Shown: one piece after another, positions 1,311 through 26,686 of the stretch
Numbering within the stretch: the first letter of the stretch is position 1
Layout of the letters: every line of letters starts with the position of its first letter
DNA from: Lingula anatina
Lineage: Eukaryota; Animalia; Brachiopoda
Direction: 5' to 3'
DNA: 64,000 nucleotides
Assembly: GCA_051362555.1 (NCBI GenBank)
Contig: CM120648.1
Span: 18,224,587 to 18,288,586 of the forward strand
Made by a program: the position numbers and the translations under genes
The notes under the pieces: generated by a model
Database searches by the model: none
What the model was told of the DNA's origin: nothing
What the model saw: the letters and a program-made list of their open reading frames with translations, nothing else

Positions 1311-2241
1311 ATGGAAGCCATGTTAGGGCAGTCTAGACGAGGTGTAAATCCAAGATCAGGACAGGTGACAGTACAGACACAACCTCCATTAGCTGAACAG
1401 GAAACAAATCCAACATCAGCTCCACATCCTCCTGTTTTCTTAGACAAGGCAGAATGTGTGCGTTCCTTCAGTGCTAAACTGGGAGATGATAGAGGAATAA
1501 TCATATACATAACTGGGTTAGCCATAGATAAGGAACACATGTTTGTTGTGGATAATGAAAACAACAGAACAAAAGTATTCACACATAAAGGACAATTTAA
1601 GTTTGATATTAAAGTAAACTATCCATATGATGTGGCTGTGTCACAGACTGGTCACCTGTATATAACATCAGAGGGTGACAGATGTGTCCAAGTGTACTCC
1701 ACCAGAGGTCAGCAGGTGACAACCATGGGTCAGGGTCTACTGGAGGAACCACATGGTATTACACTGAACAGACAAGGTCATGTGATGGTTTGTGACGGAG
1801 GAAAGAAGACCATCTTCACATTCCATGCAGACAGTGGACAGCTCCTGAACACTATTCCACTCAGTATGTGTAGAGACCCATATGACATCACAGTGAACAG
1901 TGTGAATGATAACATTGTAATATCAGACTGGGGGGGATACTGTGTACATGTGCTTTCACCTACTGGTGATCATCTGTACCAGTATGACATCAGAGAAGGC
2001 AGTGAACTGAGTTCACCATGTGGAGTGTGCACAGACAGCTATGGTCACATCTTCATTGCTGACTATGATAACGACAGGATAGTGGCACTGAGTCCACAGG
2101 GACAGTTTATCAGATACATTGTCACTAAGGATGATGGGTTGGAGTCTCCCACTGCAGTAGTCATCAACCCTGCTGGTCAGCTGGTGGTGGGAGAGATGAA
2201 TGGCAATGTTCAGACATTCCAGTACATTGACCTGAAACAAG
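1311..2241 (+). CDS. Exon encoding an NHL-repeat six-bladed beta-propeller (TRIM2/3/71-like C-terminal domain)
   Basis: Repeats such as PYDVAVSQTGHLYIT, PHGITLNRQGHVMVCD, PCGVCTDSYGHIFIADYDNDRI and PTAVVINPAGQLVV. It ends in a strong donor CAAG|GTGAGT (phase 1). Confidence 0.9.
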
Positions 2242-24600: not shown

Positions 24601-26686
24601 AAATAACATGCAAAATTATTAAACAAATGTATTGAGATATTAAACTGTATTAACAGTTTGTCTCCTTTAAATTATATTCAGCCACAAGAAATGAATGACG
24701 CTTAGTATTATGTAATTGTTTAATTAGTTAATACTGATATCAATTCTAACTTATATGTAAACATGTAATCCACATAAGGGTGTATGGGGTATTTCATTTT
24801 TTTTTCCATATTCACCCAGAGATATTGGACAGTGGGACACTGCTGGACGGACAAACAGTTCAACAACCACAGCAAGCACCACCTGCAGCAAACCTTGGCG
24901 ATGAGGTATCCGATGCGCCACACGAGATTCCAAAGCCATCCAATGATCCGACGATGTCCGATTTTCTCGAAGTCCATGCGACTTCACCAGGTACTTTAAC
25001 CGTGTTTCTTTGTATGCCATTTTACTTAGGCCTTACAAATGTGTTTTTCGTCAGAAAAAAAAAATCAAAATGATAAGGTGCACGTGGTGATGCTGGGATT
25101 ATGGCATTTTGCCTCAGGTAGAAGATGGTGTGCATTTCGACATATTGTGGAGAACTGTATTGTACGTGTATACTTTAAAATGCTCACTACATTACTGCAC
25201 CAGTAAATACTGAAAATGGTGCATGTATTTTTATACAGTGTCAAATAAAATATATGTGCCAAATTTAATTAAAATTTACGTACATTTTTGCCATAATGCT
25301 TTTAAAAATGCGTTCAAGATCACTACGAAAAACGAAAGTGTGTCGAGACGTTACCTAATTGTATTTGGGAAGCTGTCAGACGATTTCTTTCGAAAAAAGA
25401 CTTTGTAGCTTATGCAGATGTTGAGAAAAAAACATGCCGATTATGGAAAATTCAATTATCAAAATTTAAACTACGTAATTTGACAGATTTTAATTTAATT
25501 TAATTTAAAAATCGCTATCGTGTATTTCTGACATTGAATTCTCAGTGTGCACAAAGTGTAGGCATCGAAGGCATTCATGAATGTCGACACGTTTGATTCT
25601 TTGAATCAGACGCTTCATGTTACTTGATAGCGCAGAGGCATGCCAGGGAAAACAGAGGAAGAAAAACAAGTTCTGGTTTTTCTTGATTGAAGGCTTCGAT
25701 TTGTTGAAGGGCAATTCTGTATAGCCTGGTTTCCAAAGATCGTGTGGCAGGCATTTCAGCAAAACAAAATGCATCGCCAAGGACCCGAATGCCATGGCAA
25801 AATGTTTTAAGTTTACTTTGTTATTTTGATACAAATAAGCTTCCGGTTGACATAGATTTGACTGGTCTCCAACTTTCCATGCTGCACTGTGCCTGACCGA
25901 AAAAAAAAAGCCTTAAAATGAGTAGTGATTCAGTGTTCCAATGATGCCTGCGATGGCTAGAAACGTGACCCGTATTATTGGCCTTTTGGAGATCATTTCA
26001 GGTCGGTTCACTGTAACACTATCGGCAAATATACTTTACTAATAGTTCCTCGATCTATGCGATTTATGAAATTTGCTTTTCCGCACTCTCAGTGAGACTA
26101 AGTACTGTTATATTAACAAAATAAAAATAAACAGTACCGTTGCATCTACGAGTAAATAATACGTTAAGGCTTCAGTATTTTCTGTTTCAGATTACGTATC
26201 TTGGCGACACACGGGAAAGGGAACATGGTTTGTTCAATCCATTGTCGATACATTTTATCGTGAAGCACACAAATATGACGTTTTACAAATGTTGGTGAAT
26301 GTAAGTACTGAAATAACATGAACTATATTATTTTACATTGAAAGTGTGTTAAATTCATTAGAACACCAATCAAATATAAAACATAGCTGCCAGAAGAAGT
26401 GACTTGACGTAAGAGGTGACTTATGTAAATACAGTCCAACATGCACAGACTTTTTAAGAACCAGCGAAATGCTCTTCTGTATATTTTGACAGTTTAATCA
26501 GAACTGTTCACTTTATGTAATATTTTATTTCACCAGGTCAATCACGCGATCTCTCAAAAGCAAACAATAGAGGGCAACAAACAGGCACCAGAGATAGTTA
26601 CCAGCTTACGAAAGAAAGTTTTCTTCAACATAACTCCAGGTAAGCAAAAAGAGTCGCATCTTCCCGAGGTGTATTCGGCCGAATAA
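1311..26686 (+). CDS. Multi-exon NHL-Roc-COR-caspase fusion gene (about 1281 aa). Exons: 1311-2241, 9288-9518, 9968-10123, 10419-10469, 14268-14318, 15152-15397, 15800-15924, 17015-18197, 22876-22925, 23243-23413, 24337-24556, 24820-24990, 26191-26300, 26537-26686
   Basis: Every junction has an AG acceptor and a GT donor (one GC donor) with matching phases (1,1,1,1,1,1,0,1,0,0,1,1,0). The exons sum to 3846 nt with no internal stop. Domain motifs appear in colinear order. Confidence 0.72.
4938..7354. mobile_element. Non-autonomous TIR DNA transposon (CMC/EnSpm-like), copy 1, carrying a Gypsy gag-protease fragment
   Basis: TIR CCCAGACAGCCTCAGTAATCTGGCCC, TA on both flanks, subterminal CCAGATCTGG repeat arrays; inserted into a HINE remnant. 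Confidence 0.85.
5900..6753 (-). pseudogene. Decayed Gypsy gag/aspartic protease fragment inside the TIR element (also at about 31150-32008)
   Basis: RWLDSFELFADG (gag, in the 31792-31986 frame), LSVLPDSGAYCNII (DSG protease motif) and a PBS-like TGGCGACGAG on the minus strand. Confidence 0.7.
8480..9024. mobile_element. PIF/Harbinger-type MITE
   Basis: About 150-bp near-perfect TIRs (GAGCGCATTCTCAACGAATTAAGCCAGG...) and a TTA target-site duplication on both sides. Confidence 0.85.
9288..9518 (+). CDS. Roc GTPase exon with P-loop (G1) and switch I (G2)
   Basis: ttaccag| acceptor; RVAIVGPYGVGKTHLAKRL...NTTGVNI; AAG|GTAAGC donor; phase 1-1. Confidence 0.88.
9968..10123 (+). CDS. Symmetric exon encoding an acidic insert within the Roc domain
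   Basis: ttctcag|...AGAG|GTATTG, 156 nt and open in phase 1 (DDPKDQFAQNMAIGVQNSDTFCEPDLTVLDQTPLEESLPDSEVNINNMLTNR). Confidence 0.65.
10419..10469 (+). CDS. 51-nt symmetric mini-exon, copy 1 (APPDDSELPASPDKTA)
   Basis: Polypyrimidine tract + tag| and CAG|GTAAAT donor; phase 1-1; near-identical copy at 14268. Confidence 0.65.
11690..11850 (+). repeat. Dispersed repeat, related copy at about 62270-62420
   Basis: Shared CGGTCAGATTTT..A.TTTACATTGACGGGTAT.TATTTTTT.CTGT.GGAAGA...GGAGGATGGAT. Confidence 0.6.
11955..14024 (+). mobile_element. HINE (Helentron-associated element) with internal 146-bp tandem repeats; 3' end truncated
   Basis: 5' TTATTAGTACCACCAGCGTATACGCTGGCGGTAC hairpin, tandem units at about 12750-13600, and 3' subTIR GCTTGTGGTAC. 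Confidence 0.8.
14268..14318 (+). CDS. 51-nt symmetric mini-exon, copy 2 (APPDDSESPASPDKTA)
   Basis: ctacag| and CAG|GTAAGT; part of a local duplication of about 10250-10565 at about 14035-14440. Confidence 0.65.
15152..15397 (+). CDS. Roc GTPase exon with G3 motif
   Basis: VTIWDFAGQDVYYTTHQTFLSERIIYLLVFRL, the Roc signature WDFAGQ..Y...H. Confidence 0.92.
15800..15924 (+). CDS. Roc GTPase exon with G4 motif
   Basis: FWLNSIHMH...PYVLIIGTHKD; tttttcag| and CAG|GTGAAA. Confidence 0.9.
16030..16751 (+). mobile_element. 5'-truncated HINE
   Basis: 146-bp repeats, then subTIR GCTGGTGGTAC, stem-loop GAGGCGGTATCGCCTC and terminal CTAG|TTT. Confidence 0.8.
17015..18197 (+). CDS. Exon encoding the end of Roc (G5, FAISN) and the COR domain
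   Basis: NWIKLEMNL, FIPYHHRQGDILHF..LENVVIIDPLWL, LMLHFDL, FIVPSML and PIGLFHRLI are typical COR motifs; donor CAG|GTAAGC. Confidence 0.88.
19498..22204 (+). pseudogene. Degenerate tandem duplicate of the COR exon, split by a HINE insertion
   Basis: Paralogous to 17339-18197. It is 5'-truncated, has TGG>TAG at 19579-19581 and is interrupted at about 19933-21792. It resumes FHRLIIRLLRKY and ends in the same WFSG|GTAAGC donor. Confidence 0.85.
19933..21792 (+). mobile_element. Complete HINE inserted in the COR pseudo-exon
   Basis: 5' subTIR/hairpin, about 146-bp tandem repeats, 3' subTIR + stem-loop + CTAG, followed by TTT. The empty site can be reconstructed from the intact paralogous exon (GGGTTG TTTCATCG), with no clear TSD. 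Confidence 0.85.
22876..26686 (+). CDS. Caspase domain exons (p20: 22876-22925, 23243-23413, 24337-24556; linker and p10: 24820-24990, 26191-26300, 26537-26686)
   Basis: YKNDSEPRGRALIINN, RDGTEVD, catalytic LSHG, GKPKMIFIQACQG, linker EVSDA, DFL..HATSPDYVSWRH..GTWFVQ and KQAPEIVTSLRKKVFF. Confidence 0.93.
23735..24109. mobile_element. Tc1/mariner-type MITE in a caspase intron
   Basis: TIR CAACATTGGTCAAA..GGTTGTCCCACCCC; TA TSD. Confidence 0.8.

What the first reader, a model, noticed from the sequence alone, without database searches (positions are those of the whole stretch)
1311..26686. NHL-Roc-COR-caspase: a putative single-chain, GTPase-gated caspase receptor
Seen in sequence: 14 phase-compatible exons join an NHL propeller, a Roc GTPase with all motifs (GPYGVGKT, TTG, WDFAGQ, THKD, ISN), a COR domain and a caspase with an intact His-Cys dyad (SHG, QACQG). 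Established: Roco proteins (LRRK2, DAPK1, MFHAS1) dimerise through COR under nucleotide control, and initiator caspases are activated by induced dimerisation, normally through CARD/DED prodomains. Inference: here Roc-COR replaces the death-fold prodomain and adaptor, and NHL acts as the ligand or RNA sensor. That gives a sensor-switch-protease immune or cell-death receptor analogous to an NLR or apoptosome in one polypeptide. I do not know a characterised animal protein with this architecture.
Basis: partly seen in the sequence, partly recalled or inferred. Interest (0 to 1): 0.93.

Follow-up and report, generated by a model that had tools for sequence, protein, structure and literature searches.

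The report
Variable sensor wired to GTPase-gated caspase
A transcribed lamp-shell (Lingula) gene lines up a propeller domain that differs between gene copies mostly on one face, an LRRK2-type GTPase module and a cell-death protease with intact catalytic residues in what is predicted to be one protein, which likely works as a self-contained immune alarm from a family that swaps its sensor and effector parts.

Summary
The 14 exons read in frame as a 1,281-residue NHL-Roc-COR-caspase with all named motifs. The host is Lingula, judged from its homologues. RNA run X4 shows 11 of 13 junctions, including COR-to-caspase (9 reads). The NHL-to-Roc junction was not in the truncated tables, but a RefSeq model of the same or a sister locus has it. 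The last exon probably ends at 26639, not 26686.

The NHL top face varies at 30 of 65 sites among four copies, the bottom face at 2 of 74. It is acidic, which weakens the RNA-sensor idea. The three modules have different nearest relatives, and a dead second COR exon lies before the caspase. This points to a recently shuffled member of a modular Roco family.

Roc-COR-caspase fusions recur in annelid, amphioxus and anemone models. One (Owenia) is briefly in print, and bacteria have an LRR version. I found no paper on the NHL form. The scan noted this design at other loci of this genome. Likely mechanism: ligand-triggered COR dimerisation activates the caspase; untested.

The parts
1311..2241 (+). 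Exon 1: start codon, ~40-aa disordered lead, six-bladed NHL propeller derived from the TRIM-NHL C-terminus; phase-1 donor. If unspliced, a stop follows one codon later.
   Evidence: Pfam NHL E 5e-18; model pLDDT 87.7; TRIM3 NHL is the best fold match; X4 depth 31.7 on 1368-2034
9288..9518 (+). Exon 2: Roc G1 (GPYGVGKT) and G2 (TTG)
   Evidence: Pfam Roc; joint to 9968 in 35-36 X4 reads
9968..10123 (+). Exon 3: acidic insert between Roc G2 and G3
   Evidence: RNA joints on both sides; 51/52 identical to RefSeq P0009
10419..10469 (+). Exon 4: 51-nt linker exon, tandem duplicate of exon 5, often skipped
   Evidence: 6 and 4 reads include it, 13 skip it; sequence comparison
14268..14318 (+). Exon 5: 51-nt linker exon
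   Evidence: Acceptor used in RNA; 17/17 identical to P0001; its joint to 15152 was not in the printed rows
15152..15397 (+). Exon 6: Roc G3 (WDFAGQ)
   Evidence: Pfam Roc E 2e-8; 41 reads to 15800
15800..15924 (+). Exon 7: Roc G4 (THKD)
   Evidence: 25-33 reads to 17015
17015..18197 (+). Exon 8: Roc G5 (ISN), COR-A and COR-B
   Evidence: Pfam COR-A E 3e-21; model pLDDT 87 matches Chlorobium Roco COR 3dpt, E 2.5e-13, TM 0.76 by target; 9 reads, 8 starts to 22876
19493..22204 (+). Broken second COR exon: 5' part missing, in-frame stop near 19579, split by a 1.86-kb repeat element (about 19935-21792); keeps its own donor 671 nt before the caspase
   Evidence: Self-blast 85% and 73% to exon 8; dN/dS 0.33 and 0.31 against exon 8; X4 reads join 19932>21793 (8) and 22204>22876 (9)
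22876..22925 (+). Exon 9: short COR-caspase linker, GC donor
   Evidence: 34 reads to 23243
23243..23413 (+). Exon 10: caspase large subunit start, with the RDGT arginine (R1035)
   Evidence: Pfam C14 E 7e-10; 16 reads to 24337; alignment
24337..24556 (+). Exon 11: catalytic His (SHG) and Cys (QACQG)
   Evidence: Pfam C14 E 3e-18; best PDB sequence match caspase-2, E 6.5e-17
24820..24990 (+). Exon 12: inter-subunit linker with candidate self-cleavage aspartates (D1142, D1148, D1170)
   Evidence: 11 reads in, 10 out; Asp sites listed; cleavage is inferred
26191..26300 (+). Exon 13: caspase small subunit, SWR arginine (R1201)
   Evidence: Pfam C14 E 8e-6; 24 reads to 26537
26537..26686 (+). Exon 14: end of caspase. 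Probably ends at the donor after 26639 rather than at the stop at 26684-26686.
   Evidence: Donor CAG|GTAAGC; X4 depth 0 on 26667-27900; an AATAAA at 26685 leaves the short form possible
29339..29464 (+). Candidate terminal exon (10 further codons, stop, AATAAA at 29459); one of several candidates, untested
   Evidence: Acceptor score 8.8, seventh-best of the AG sites in 26700-40400; outside both read lays

Best explanation
This is a transcribed Lingula gene predicted to encode one NHL-Roc-COR-caspase protein that likely acts as an intracellular immune receptor, in which ligand binding to the variable propeller face would drive Roc-COR dimerisation and so switch on its own caspase. Shown: the open 14-exon frame, splicing from Roc through COR to the caspase, intact catalytic and GTP-binding motifs, one-face variability of the propeller, and three modules with three different nearest relatives. 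Inferred steps: (1) At rest the protein is a GTP-bound monomer with an inactive caspase, by analogy with Chlorobium Roco, which is mainly monomeric with GTP and dimeric without nucleotide (PMC6337361). (2) A foreign or modified macromolecule, more likely a protein or surface than a stem-loop RNA, binds the top face; the Roc-COR hangs from the opposite face. (3) Clustering and GTP turnover favour the COR-B dimer. (4) The two caspase domains, about 20 residues past the COR end, are forced together, cut their own linker and cleave downstream targets, with no CARD/DED adaptor or Apaf-1. The gene is one combination in a modular Roco family whose sensor and effector exons join at phase-1 boundaries, and it likely arose by recent recombination between paralogues.
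For: Frame, phases and motifs. RNA: 11 of 13 junctions in X4, COR>caspase in 9 reads with 8 starts; NHL and COR exons at similar depth on the same strand in X4 (31.7 and 35.4). RefSeq model P0009 crosses the same NHL>Roc junction, matches the Roc exons at 74/77, 51/52, 79/82 and 42/42, and reads into the same intron. Variable sites among the window, P0008, P0009 and P0010: top face 30 of 65, bottom face 2 of 74, Fisher p 3e-10; against P0009 alone 25 of 65 and 1 of 74. Mosaic origin: NHL nearest P0008, which carries another Roc-COR subfamily (272/310); Roc-COR sister to the HEPN-bearing P0001 (100/100); caspase nearest the Bcl-2-bearing P0006 (46%); the AU test rejects joining this caspase with that of P0002 (p 3e-5). 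The same caspase clade is fused to a RIG-I helicase and to a PARP domain in Lingula. 16 of 225 stored proteins hold both COR and caspase domains, in six named genera, and one origin for ten of the fused caspases is rejected (p 5e-7). Apaf-1 and caspase-2 were not detected in L. anatina (PMC11463336). Bacterial LRR-Roc-COR proteins with swappable effectors, caspase among them, are predicted counter-invader systems (PMC8195603).
Against: No read across 2241>9288 was seen in the printed tables, and an unspliced exon 1 stops one codon later, giving a complete stand-alone NHL protein. Run X7 has about 33x on the NHL exon but about 0 on Roc and COR, so NHL-like reads can be uncoupled from this Roc. 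The Roc-COR exons are well covered in only 1 of 4 runs. X4 reads come from more than one copy: half of the caspase-linker joints come from a COR exon that is broken in this assembly, so short reads cannot be pinned to this locus. Ligand faces of NHL domains diverge quickly in non-immune families too (PMC5908797), and the pattern is shared by 11 Lingula TRIM-NHL proteins of unknown function. Variability was measured on proteins only, with no dN/dS. No activity, ligand, induction or oligomer data exist. The nucleotide state that activates is borrowed from a bacterial protein about 16% identical.
Confidence: 0.58

Rival explanations
1. Same single-chain immune receptor, but Roc-COR acts as a brake or scaffold rather than a dimer switch: ligand binding or a cut in the acidic Roc insert or the COR-caspase linker releases the caspase, which then pairs on its own.
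For: The ~145-aa insert between G2 and G3 is acidic, variable in exon number and rich in Asp sites. GTP binding to Roc inhibits the effector in DAPK1 (PMC6337361). HEPN, RHIM-like and death-domain effectors sit on the same chassis.
Against: All five G motifs are kept, and a COR-B-like subdomain, the part that dimerises in Chlorobium Roco, is present. The linker to the caspase is short.
Confidence: 0.2
2. The NHL exon is a separate or mostly separate transcript (a stand-alone propeller), and the Roc-COR-caspase starts from another first exon.
For: In-frame stop one codon past the donor; junction not in the printed rows; X7 shows NHL reads without Roc reads; 7-kb repeat-filled intron.
Against: Strong donor AAG|GTGAGT in matching phase. 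P0009 has this junction, and P0008 and P0010 use the same donor for other partners. X4 depth in bin 2035-2701 fits a stop at the exon end, with no read-through. Exon 2 has no methionine before its P-loop.
Confidence: 0.08
3. A short-lived by-product of exon shuffling in a fast birth-and-death family, transcribed but without a selected function.
For: Broken COR copy inside the gene; a near-copy of this caspase with Asp in place of the catalytic Cys is annotated on the contig of P0001; low expression in 3 of 4 runs.
Against: Intact 1,281-codon frame. None of the 17 exonic X4 variants checked (of 40 printed, 82 hidden) makes a stop or hits a catalytic motif; 9 are silent. The bottom face of the NHL is almost invariant while the top varies. 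The Roc-COR-caspase layout is kept between Lingula and Owenia.
Confidence: 0.08
4. A developmental or stress regulator in which the NHL binds a host RNA or protein, as in TRIM-NHL proteins, and the caspase has a non-immune role.
For: The propeller derives from TRIM-NHL genes; Brat binds RNA through a mixed surface (PMC5908797).
Against: A fixed host ligand predicts a conserved binding face; the opposite is seen. The face is net acidic in this copy and changes charge between copies (K+R 7-12, D+E 8-15).
Confidence: 0.06

Closest known systems
Owenia fusiformis ROC-prodomain caspase CAH1787638.1 (caspase-Y clade; Horkan et al. 2024, PMC11463336)
   Same: Roc(-COR) in place of a CARD/DED prodomain on a caspase; the window's caspase falls in the same supported clade (95/88).
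   Different: No NHL sensor. The paper treats it as a species-specific oddity, possibly a gene-prediction chimera, does not mention COR in its main text, and suggests a kinase interaction. Three Lingula Roc-COR-caspase accessions are absent from its supplement.
Prokaryotic LRR-AP-GTPase(Roc)-COR-effector counter-invader proteins (Kaur et al. 2021, PMC8195603, section 15)
   Same: Fast-evolving N-terminal repeat, Roc-COR core, swappable C-terminal effector including caspase; several paralogues per genome.
   Different: Animal gene built by exon shuffling; NHL propeller instead of LRR; a metazoan caspase with p20/p10 linker. The bacterial function is itself a prediction.
Vertebrate Roco proteins LRRK1/2, DAPK1, MFHAS1 and Chlorobium CtRoco (PMC6337361)
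   Same: Roc with G1-G5 followed by a two-part COR; fold match to 3dpt, 6hlu and LRRK1/2.
   Different: No kinase, LRR or ankyrin; long acidic insert between G2 and G3; a protease as effector.
NLR inflammasome and Apaf-1/CED-4 apoptosome (recalled)
   Same: Sensor, nucleotide switch and proximity-activated initiator caspase as a working logic.
   Different: The switch is a Ras-like GTPase, not a STAND ATPase; no CARD/PYD/DED adaptor; all parts in one chain; a dimer is expected rather than a wheel.
TRIM-NHL proteins (TRIM2/3, LIN41/TRIM71, Brat) and the Lingula TRIM-NHL expansion
   Same: Six-bladed NHL propeller, 60-67% identical to three Lingula TRIM-NHL C-termini tested; TRIM2/3 are the nearest solved structures.
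   Different: No RING, B-box or coiled coil; propeller is N-terminal; top face is not basic as in LIN41.
Aplysia TIR-Roc-COR proteins (PMC9334734)
   Same: Lophotrochozoan Roc-COR joined to an immune effector and proposed as a novel signalling route.
   Different: LRR/TIR/death domains rather than NHL and caspase.

Membership tests
Roco proteins | Ras-like Roc domain with G1-G5 motifs | tested here: met
   GPYGVGKT, TTG, WDFAGQ, THKD, ISN in order; Pfam Roc on exons 2 and 6. Assignment of TTG and ISN to G2 and G5 is by position and recalled consensus.
Roco proteins | COR directly after Roc, with N- and C-terminal subdomains | tested here: met
   Pfam COR-A E 3e-21; no Pfam COR-B hit; the predicted model matches the whole CtRoco COR over 333 columns, TM 0.76 by target.
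Roco proteins | GTP binding, hydrolysis and nucleotide-dependent monomer-dimer cycle | not testable with these tools
   Needs purified protein.
Metazoan caspases (peptidase C14A) | His-Cys dyad in SHG and QACxG, with the Arg/Gln/Arg aspartate pocket | tested here: met
   H1093, C1136, R1035, Q1134 and R1201 align with five other caspases; alignment to caspase-2. The pocket role of these residues is recalled.
Metazoan caspases (peptidase C14A) | Aspartate-specific proteolysis and self-processing | not testable with these tools
   Candidate linker Asp sites listed; no assay.
Caspase-Y (lophotrochozoan CARD caspases) | Catalytic domain groups with the caspase-Y clade | tested here: met
   Clade 95/88 with the Owenia ROC caspase, a Lingula PARP-caspase and a Lingula CARD caspase; the paper places an Owenia ROC caspase and a Lingula PARP caspase in caspase-Y. 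Taxon sampling was limited to search hits.
Caspase-Y (lophotrochozoan CARD caspases) | CARD prodomain | tested here: not met
   No CARD hit on the exons scanned; Roc-COR precedes the caspase.
TRIM-NHL proteins | Six-bladed NHL propeller | tested here: met
TRIM-NHL proteins | N-terminal RING, B-box and coiled coil | tested here: not met
   TRIM similarity begins at 1299; no upstream tblastn hit within the window.
RNA-binding NHL domains (LIN41 type) | Basic patch on the upper propeller face | tested here: not met
   Top-face residues: 7 K/R against 15 D/E, by residue count, not an electrostatic map. Brat-type binding is not excluded.
NLR / apoptosome (STAND) | STAND ATPase (NACHT or NB-ARC) switch | tested here: not met
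   Only weak P-loop cross-hits (E about 0.01-0.02) on exon 2; Roc is the best family.
NLR / apoptosome (STAND) | Ligand-induced oligomerisation activates an initiator caspase | not testable with these tools
   Inference from architecture only.
Prokaryotic LRR-AP-GTPase-COR conflict proteins | Constant Roc-COR core with effectors that vary among paralogues | tested here: met
   The six-member Lingula clade holds caspase, C-terminal HEPN, N-terminal HEPN and RHIM-like forms.
Prokaryotic LRR-AP-GTPase-COR conflict proteins | Rapidly evolving N-terminal LRR | tested here: not met
   A one-face-variable NHL propeller takes that place.

The most novel reading that the evidence does not exclude
Marine invertebrates have an unrecognised class of intracellular immune receptors built on Roc-COR GTPases instead of STAND ATPases. 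Sensor exons (hypervariable NHL, Bcl-2-like, HEPN) and effector exons (caspase, HEPN, RHIM, death) are recombined among paralogues. This gene is a freshly assembled NHL-caspase member, with the scar of its assembly still in the intron, and it activates a caspase through a GTPase dimer switch with no adaptor in a lineage reported to lack Apaf-1.
Probability: 0.45. Interest if true: 0.88.

Novelty: new variant of a known kind. Interest (0 to 1): 0.72.

Why it matters
It would show a route to initiator-caspase activation in animals that uses neither death-fold adaptors nor an ATPase wheel, in a lineage where the activator of intrinsic-type caspases is an open question because Apaf-1 was not detected. 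It would extend to animals the sensor-Roc-COR-effector logic so far predicted for bacteria. It would also give the Roco field a simple readout: a protease that reports directly on the disputed monomer-dimer cycle of the LRRK2-type module.

Tried and rejected
No whole genome is held for this window, so paralogues and their DNA could not be surveyed and no dN/dS for the NHL exon was possible. The run search listed no RNA holder (no evidence either way); five of the nine same-species runs (X2, X5, X6, X8, X9) were never laid. Both read lays are spent. The 2241>9288 and 14318>15152 joints and the exit from 26639 were not in the printed rows, which may be due to truncation. Homodimer prediction for the exon-8 COR fragment gave no verdict (score 0.00, alignment not used). 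The exon-like stretch 14758-14828 was left out of the model: it breaks phase with 15152, no joint was printed, and RefSeq relatives join exon 5 directly to exon 6. The second COR copy was rejected as a working exon of this haplotype because of its stop, missing 5' part and insertion. It was also rejected as a neutral in-place duplicate, because dN/dS is about 0.3 and dS is 0.35-0.80. tblastn of all stored proteins found no further domain upstream of 1290, in intron 1 or after 26640. Ten paper searches found no description of an NHL-Roc-COR-caspase. The library holds only Creative Commons PMC papers and bioRxiv. Gerdol et al. 2018 on Lingula immunity was seen only as a reference and could mention such genes. 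PMC6321704 and PMC7159879 (passages) had nothing on this architecture. In the COR tree three of 47 chosen rows were dropped for short COR matches (P0064, P0081, P0083). The AU tests used a 24-row subset and LG+G4; the ten-member fused group was defined by architecture, but after a first tree had been seen.

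
Full report
Observation. The window holds a spliced animal gene on the + strand. Fourteen exons between 1311 and 26686 join in matching phases, with 12 GT-AG introns and one GC-AG intron, into 1,281 codons without an internal stop. The closest proteins are RefSeq models of Lingula anatina. 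One of them, P0009 (XP_023930482.1), reads into the same intron after exon 7 (87 residues at 92%), so the host is that brachiopod or a very close relative.

RNA. Four same-species runs were laid on 701-20700 and run X4 on 9251-27900. X4 covers the exons on the sense strand and shows 11 of 13 junctions: 9518>9968 (35-36 reads), 10123>10419 (6), 10469>14268 (4), 15397>15800 (41), 15924>17015 (25-33), 18197>22876 (9 reads, 8 starts), 22925>23243 (34), 23413>24337 (16), 24556>24820 (11), 24990>26191 (10) and 26300>26537 (24). The NHL-to-Roc junction and 14318>15152 were not among the printed rows; the tables hid 141 and 6 rows. Indirect support for the first: in X4 the NHL and COR exons have similar depth (31.7 and 35.4) with no read-through into intron 1, and P0009 joins the same two exons. 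Against: exon 1 would end in a stop one codon past its donor. X7 has about 33x on the NHL exon and about 0 on Roc and COR, and X1 and X3 have about 1x on both. Exon 4 is skipped in 13 reads. X4 has no depth on 26667-27900, so the last exon probably leaves at the donor after 26639; a candidate terminal exon lies at 29339 but is untested. Reads come from more than one allele or paralogue (see below), so they show that this architecture is spliced in the species, not that each read is from this locus.

The three modules. The NHL exon folds as a six-bladed propeller (pLDDT 87.7) nearest TRIM3 and TRIM2. It matches the C-terminal third of Lingula TRIM-NHL proteins from 12 bases before its start codon, so it is likely a cut-down TRIM-NHL end that gained a start and a donor. 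I classed residues as top or bottom face by blade topology from the model. Among the window, P0008, P0009 and P0010, 30 of 65 top sites vary against 2 of 74 bottom sites (p 3e-10). Against P0009 alone, whose Roc exons are 96-100% identical, 25 of 65 top sites and 1 of 74 bottom sites differ. Eleven TRIM-NHL paralogues show the same pattern (entropy 1.6 against 0.63). The top face has 7 basic and 15 acidic residues, unlike the basic RNA pocket of LIN41 (PMC5908797, passages). That paper also notes that this face diverges quickly among NHL subfamilies in general. The chain leaves the propeller at the bottom face, so the variable face stays free. The Roc has a 145-residue acidic insert between G2 and G3. 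The exon-8 model (pLDDT 87) matches the whole COR of Chlorobium Roco (E 2.5e-13), so the C-terminal COR half is present although Pfam COR-B does not hit. The caspase keeps R1035, H1093, Q1134, C1136 and R1201 and has linker aspartates at 1142, 1148 and 1170. It starts about 20 residues after COR.

A modular family and a recent shuffle. In Lingula RefSeq the same NHL cassette sits on a different Roc-COR subfamily (P0008) and on a protein with a weak CARD hit (P0010). The Roc-COR clade of the window gene (six rows, 100/100) holds C-terminal HEPN, N-terminal HEPN, caspase and RHIM-like forms, and its sister is HEPN-bearing P0001. Its caspase is nearest that of P0006, a Bcl-2-like-Roc-COR-caspase whose COR is only 26% identical. 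It cannot be grouped with the caspase of P0002, whose COR is 72% identical (AU p 3e-5). Between exon 8 and the caspase lies a second COR exon, 19493-22204, lacking its 5' part, with a stop and a 1.86-kb insertion. It differs from exon 8 with dN/dS about 0.3, and its two halves are nearest P0001 (90%) and P0002 (73%), so it comes from a once functional paralogue. X4 holds reads of an insertion-free version spliced to the same linker exon (8 and 9 reads). The simplest reading, inferred, is that an NHL-Roc-COR front was joined upstream of an older COR-caspase whose own COR is left as a scar.

Spread. Of 225 stored proteins, 16 hold both COR and caspase domains: Lingula 3, Owenia 3, Branchiostoma 3, Exaiptasia 1, Potamilus 1, Sinanodonta 1 and 4 unnamed. 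Three of the 16 have the caspase in front. None has NHL as well. Only the best 150 of 23,175 profile hits were listed, so this is a lower bound, and these are gene models. One origin for ten fused caspases is rejected (p 5e-7). The window's caspase lies in a clade (95/88) with the Owenia ROC caspase and Lingula caspases fused to PARP, CARD and a RIG-I helicase.

Mechanism. CtRoco is mainly monomeric with GTP and dimeric without nucleotide, through the C-terminal COR half (PMC6337361, passages). Initiator caspases are activated by induced dimerisation (established knowledge, recalled). The best-supported reading is a receptor that rests as a GTP-bound monomer, is clustered by a ligand on the variable face, dimerises through COR on GTP turnover, and so pairs and self-processes its caspase. 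I put the single-chain architecture near 0.9 and the whole mechanism near 0.58. The rivals are a brake-and-release role for Roc-COR (0.2), a separate NHL transcript (0.08), a functionless shuffling product (0.08) and a non-immune regulator (0.06).

What is known. Horkan et al. 2024 (PMC11463336; abstract, passages, section 6, first part of section 9, two supplement keyword searches) report one Owenia caspase with a ROC prodomain in the caspase-Y clade. They allow that it may be a prediction chimera, and they report no Apaf-1 or caspase-2 in L. anatina. Kaur et al. 2021 (PMC8195603; passages and section 15) describe bacterial LRR-Roc-COR proteins with at least 24 effector types, caspase included. 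Aplysia TIR-Roc-COR proteins are noted in PMC9334734 (passages), and a 2026 preprint lists Roc and COR among TIR protein domains (10.64898/2026.04.20.719644, passages). Ten searches found no paper on an NHL-Roc-COR-caspase; subscription papers were not searchable. Unreviewed notes of this scan report the same or related designs at eight other places in this genome; they are leads, not support, and they made me treat reads as possibly paralogous.

Verdict. It is a Roco protein and a caspase by the features testable here; it is not a TRIM-NHL, a CARD caspase or an NLR, though it likely works like one. It is a new variant of a known kind. Interest 0.72.

Noticed in passing
P0006 (XP_013407220.1, Lingula) and P0040 (CAH1786849.1, Owenia): Bcl-2-like domain, Roc, COR and intact caspase in one model in both a brachiopod and an annelid; 43% identical over Roc-COR-caspase, COR domains in one clade (99/95). 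The Owenia accession is in the Horkan supplement with a blank prodomain cell.
   Followed up: partly
P0141 (XP_013415815.1) and P0168 (XP_013404384.1), Lingula: Caspases of the same clade fused to a RIG-I-like helicase (caspase in place of CARDs) and to a PARP domain.
   Followed up: partly
   Followed up: partly
window 14758-14828: Exon-like stretch resembling the 51-nt linker exons of paralogues, out of phase with 15152; no joint printed.
   Followed up: partly
window 11955-14023, 16036-16755, 19935-21792: Three copies of an interspersed element with internal 146-bp tandem repeats; the third sits between two T in the broken COR copy and ends in CTAG (Helitron/Helentron-like by recall). Heavily covered in all four RNA runs.
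   Followed up: partly
window 1368-2034, run X7: About 33x on the NHL exon with about 0 on Roc and COR exons: an NHL cassette expressed in another gene context or alone.
   Followed up: no
window 4936-7356 and 30176-32610: 2.4-kb element present twice at 96% identity, inside intron 1 and downstream of the gene.
   Followed up: no
window 40567-46186: 39-bp satellite, 144 copies, 96% matches; gives a 1,909-codon open frame on the - strand.
   Followed up: no
window 52171-56094 and 57145-61043: Tandem 3.9-kb units (94% identical), each with a ~690-codon ORF with helix-hairpin-helix and PNMA/gag-like Pfam hits, between ~370-bp direct repeats; retroelement-like.
   Followed up: no
window 46729-47411 and 47685-48370: Inverted repeat of about 685 bp, 98% identical.
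   Followed up: no
window 26866-27357, 29435-29995, 35801-36756, 37558-37782: Transposon-like remnants by eye (reverse transcriptase, Tc1-type, GIY-YIG, Harbinger-type; labels recalled). Only the second has a weak Pfam HTH hit, E 0.0075.
   Followed up: partly
P0108, P0225, P0093: Reverse order, caspase in front of Roc-COR, in two freshwater mussels and amphioxus.
   Followed up: no
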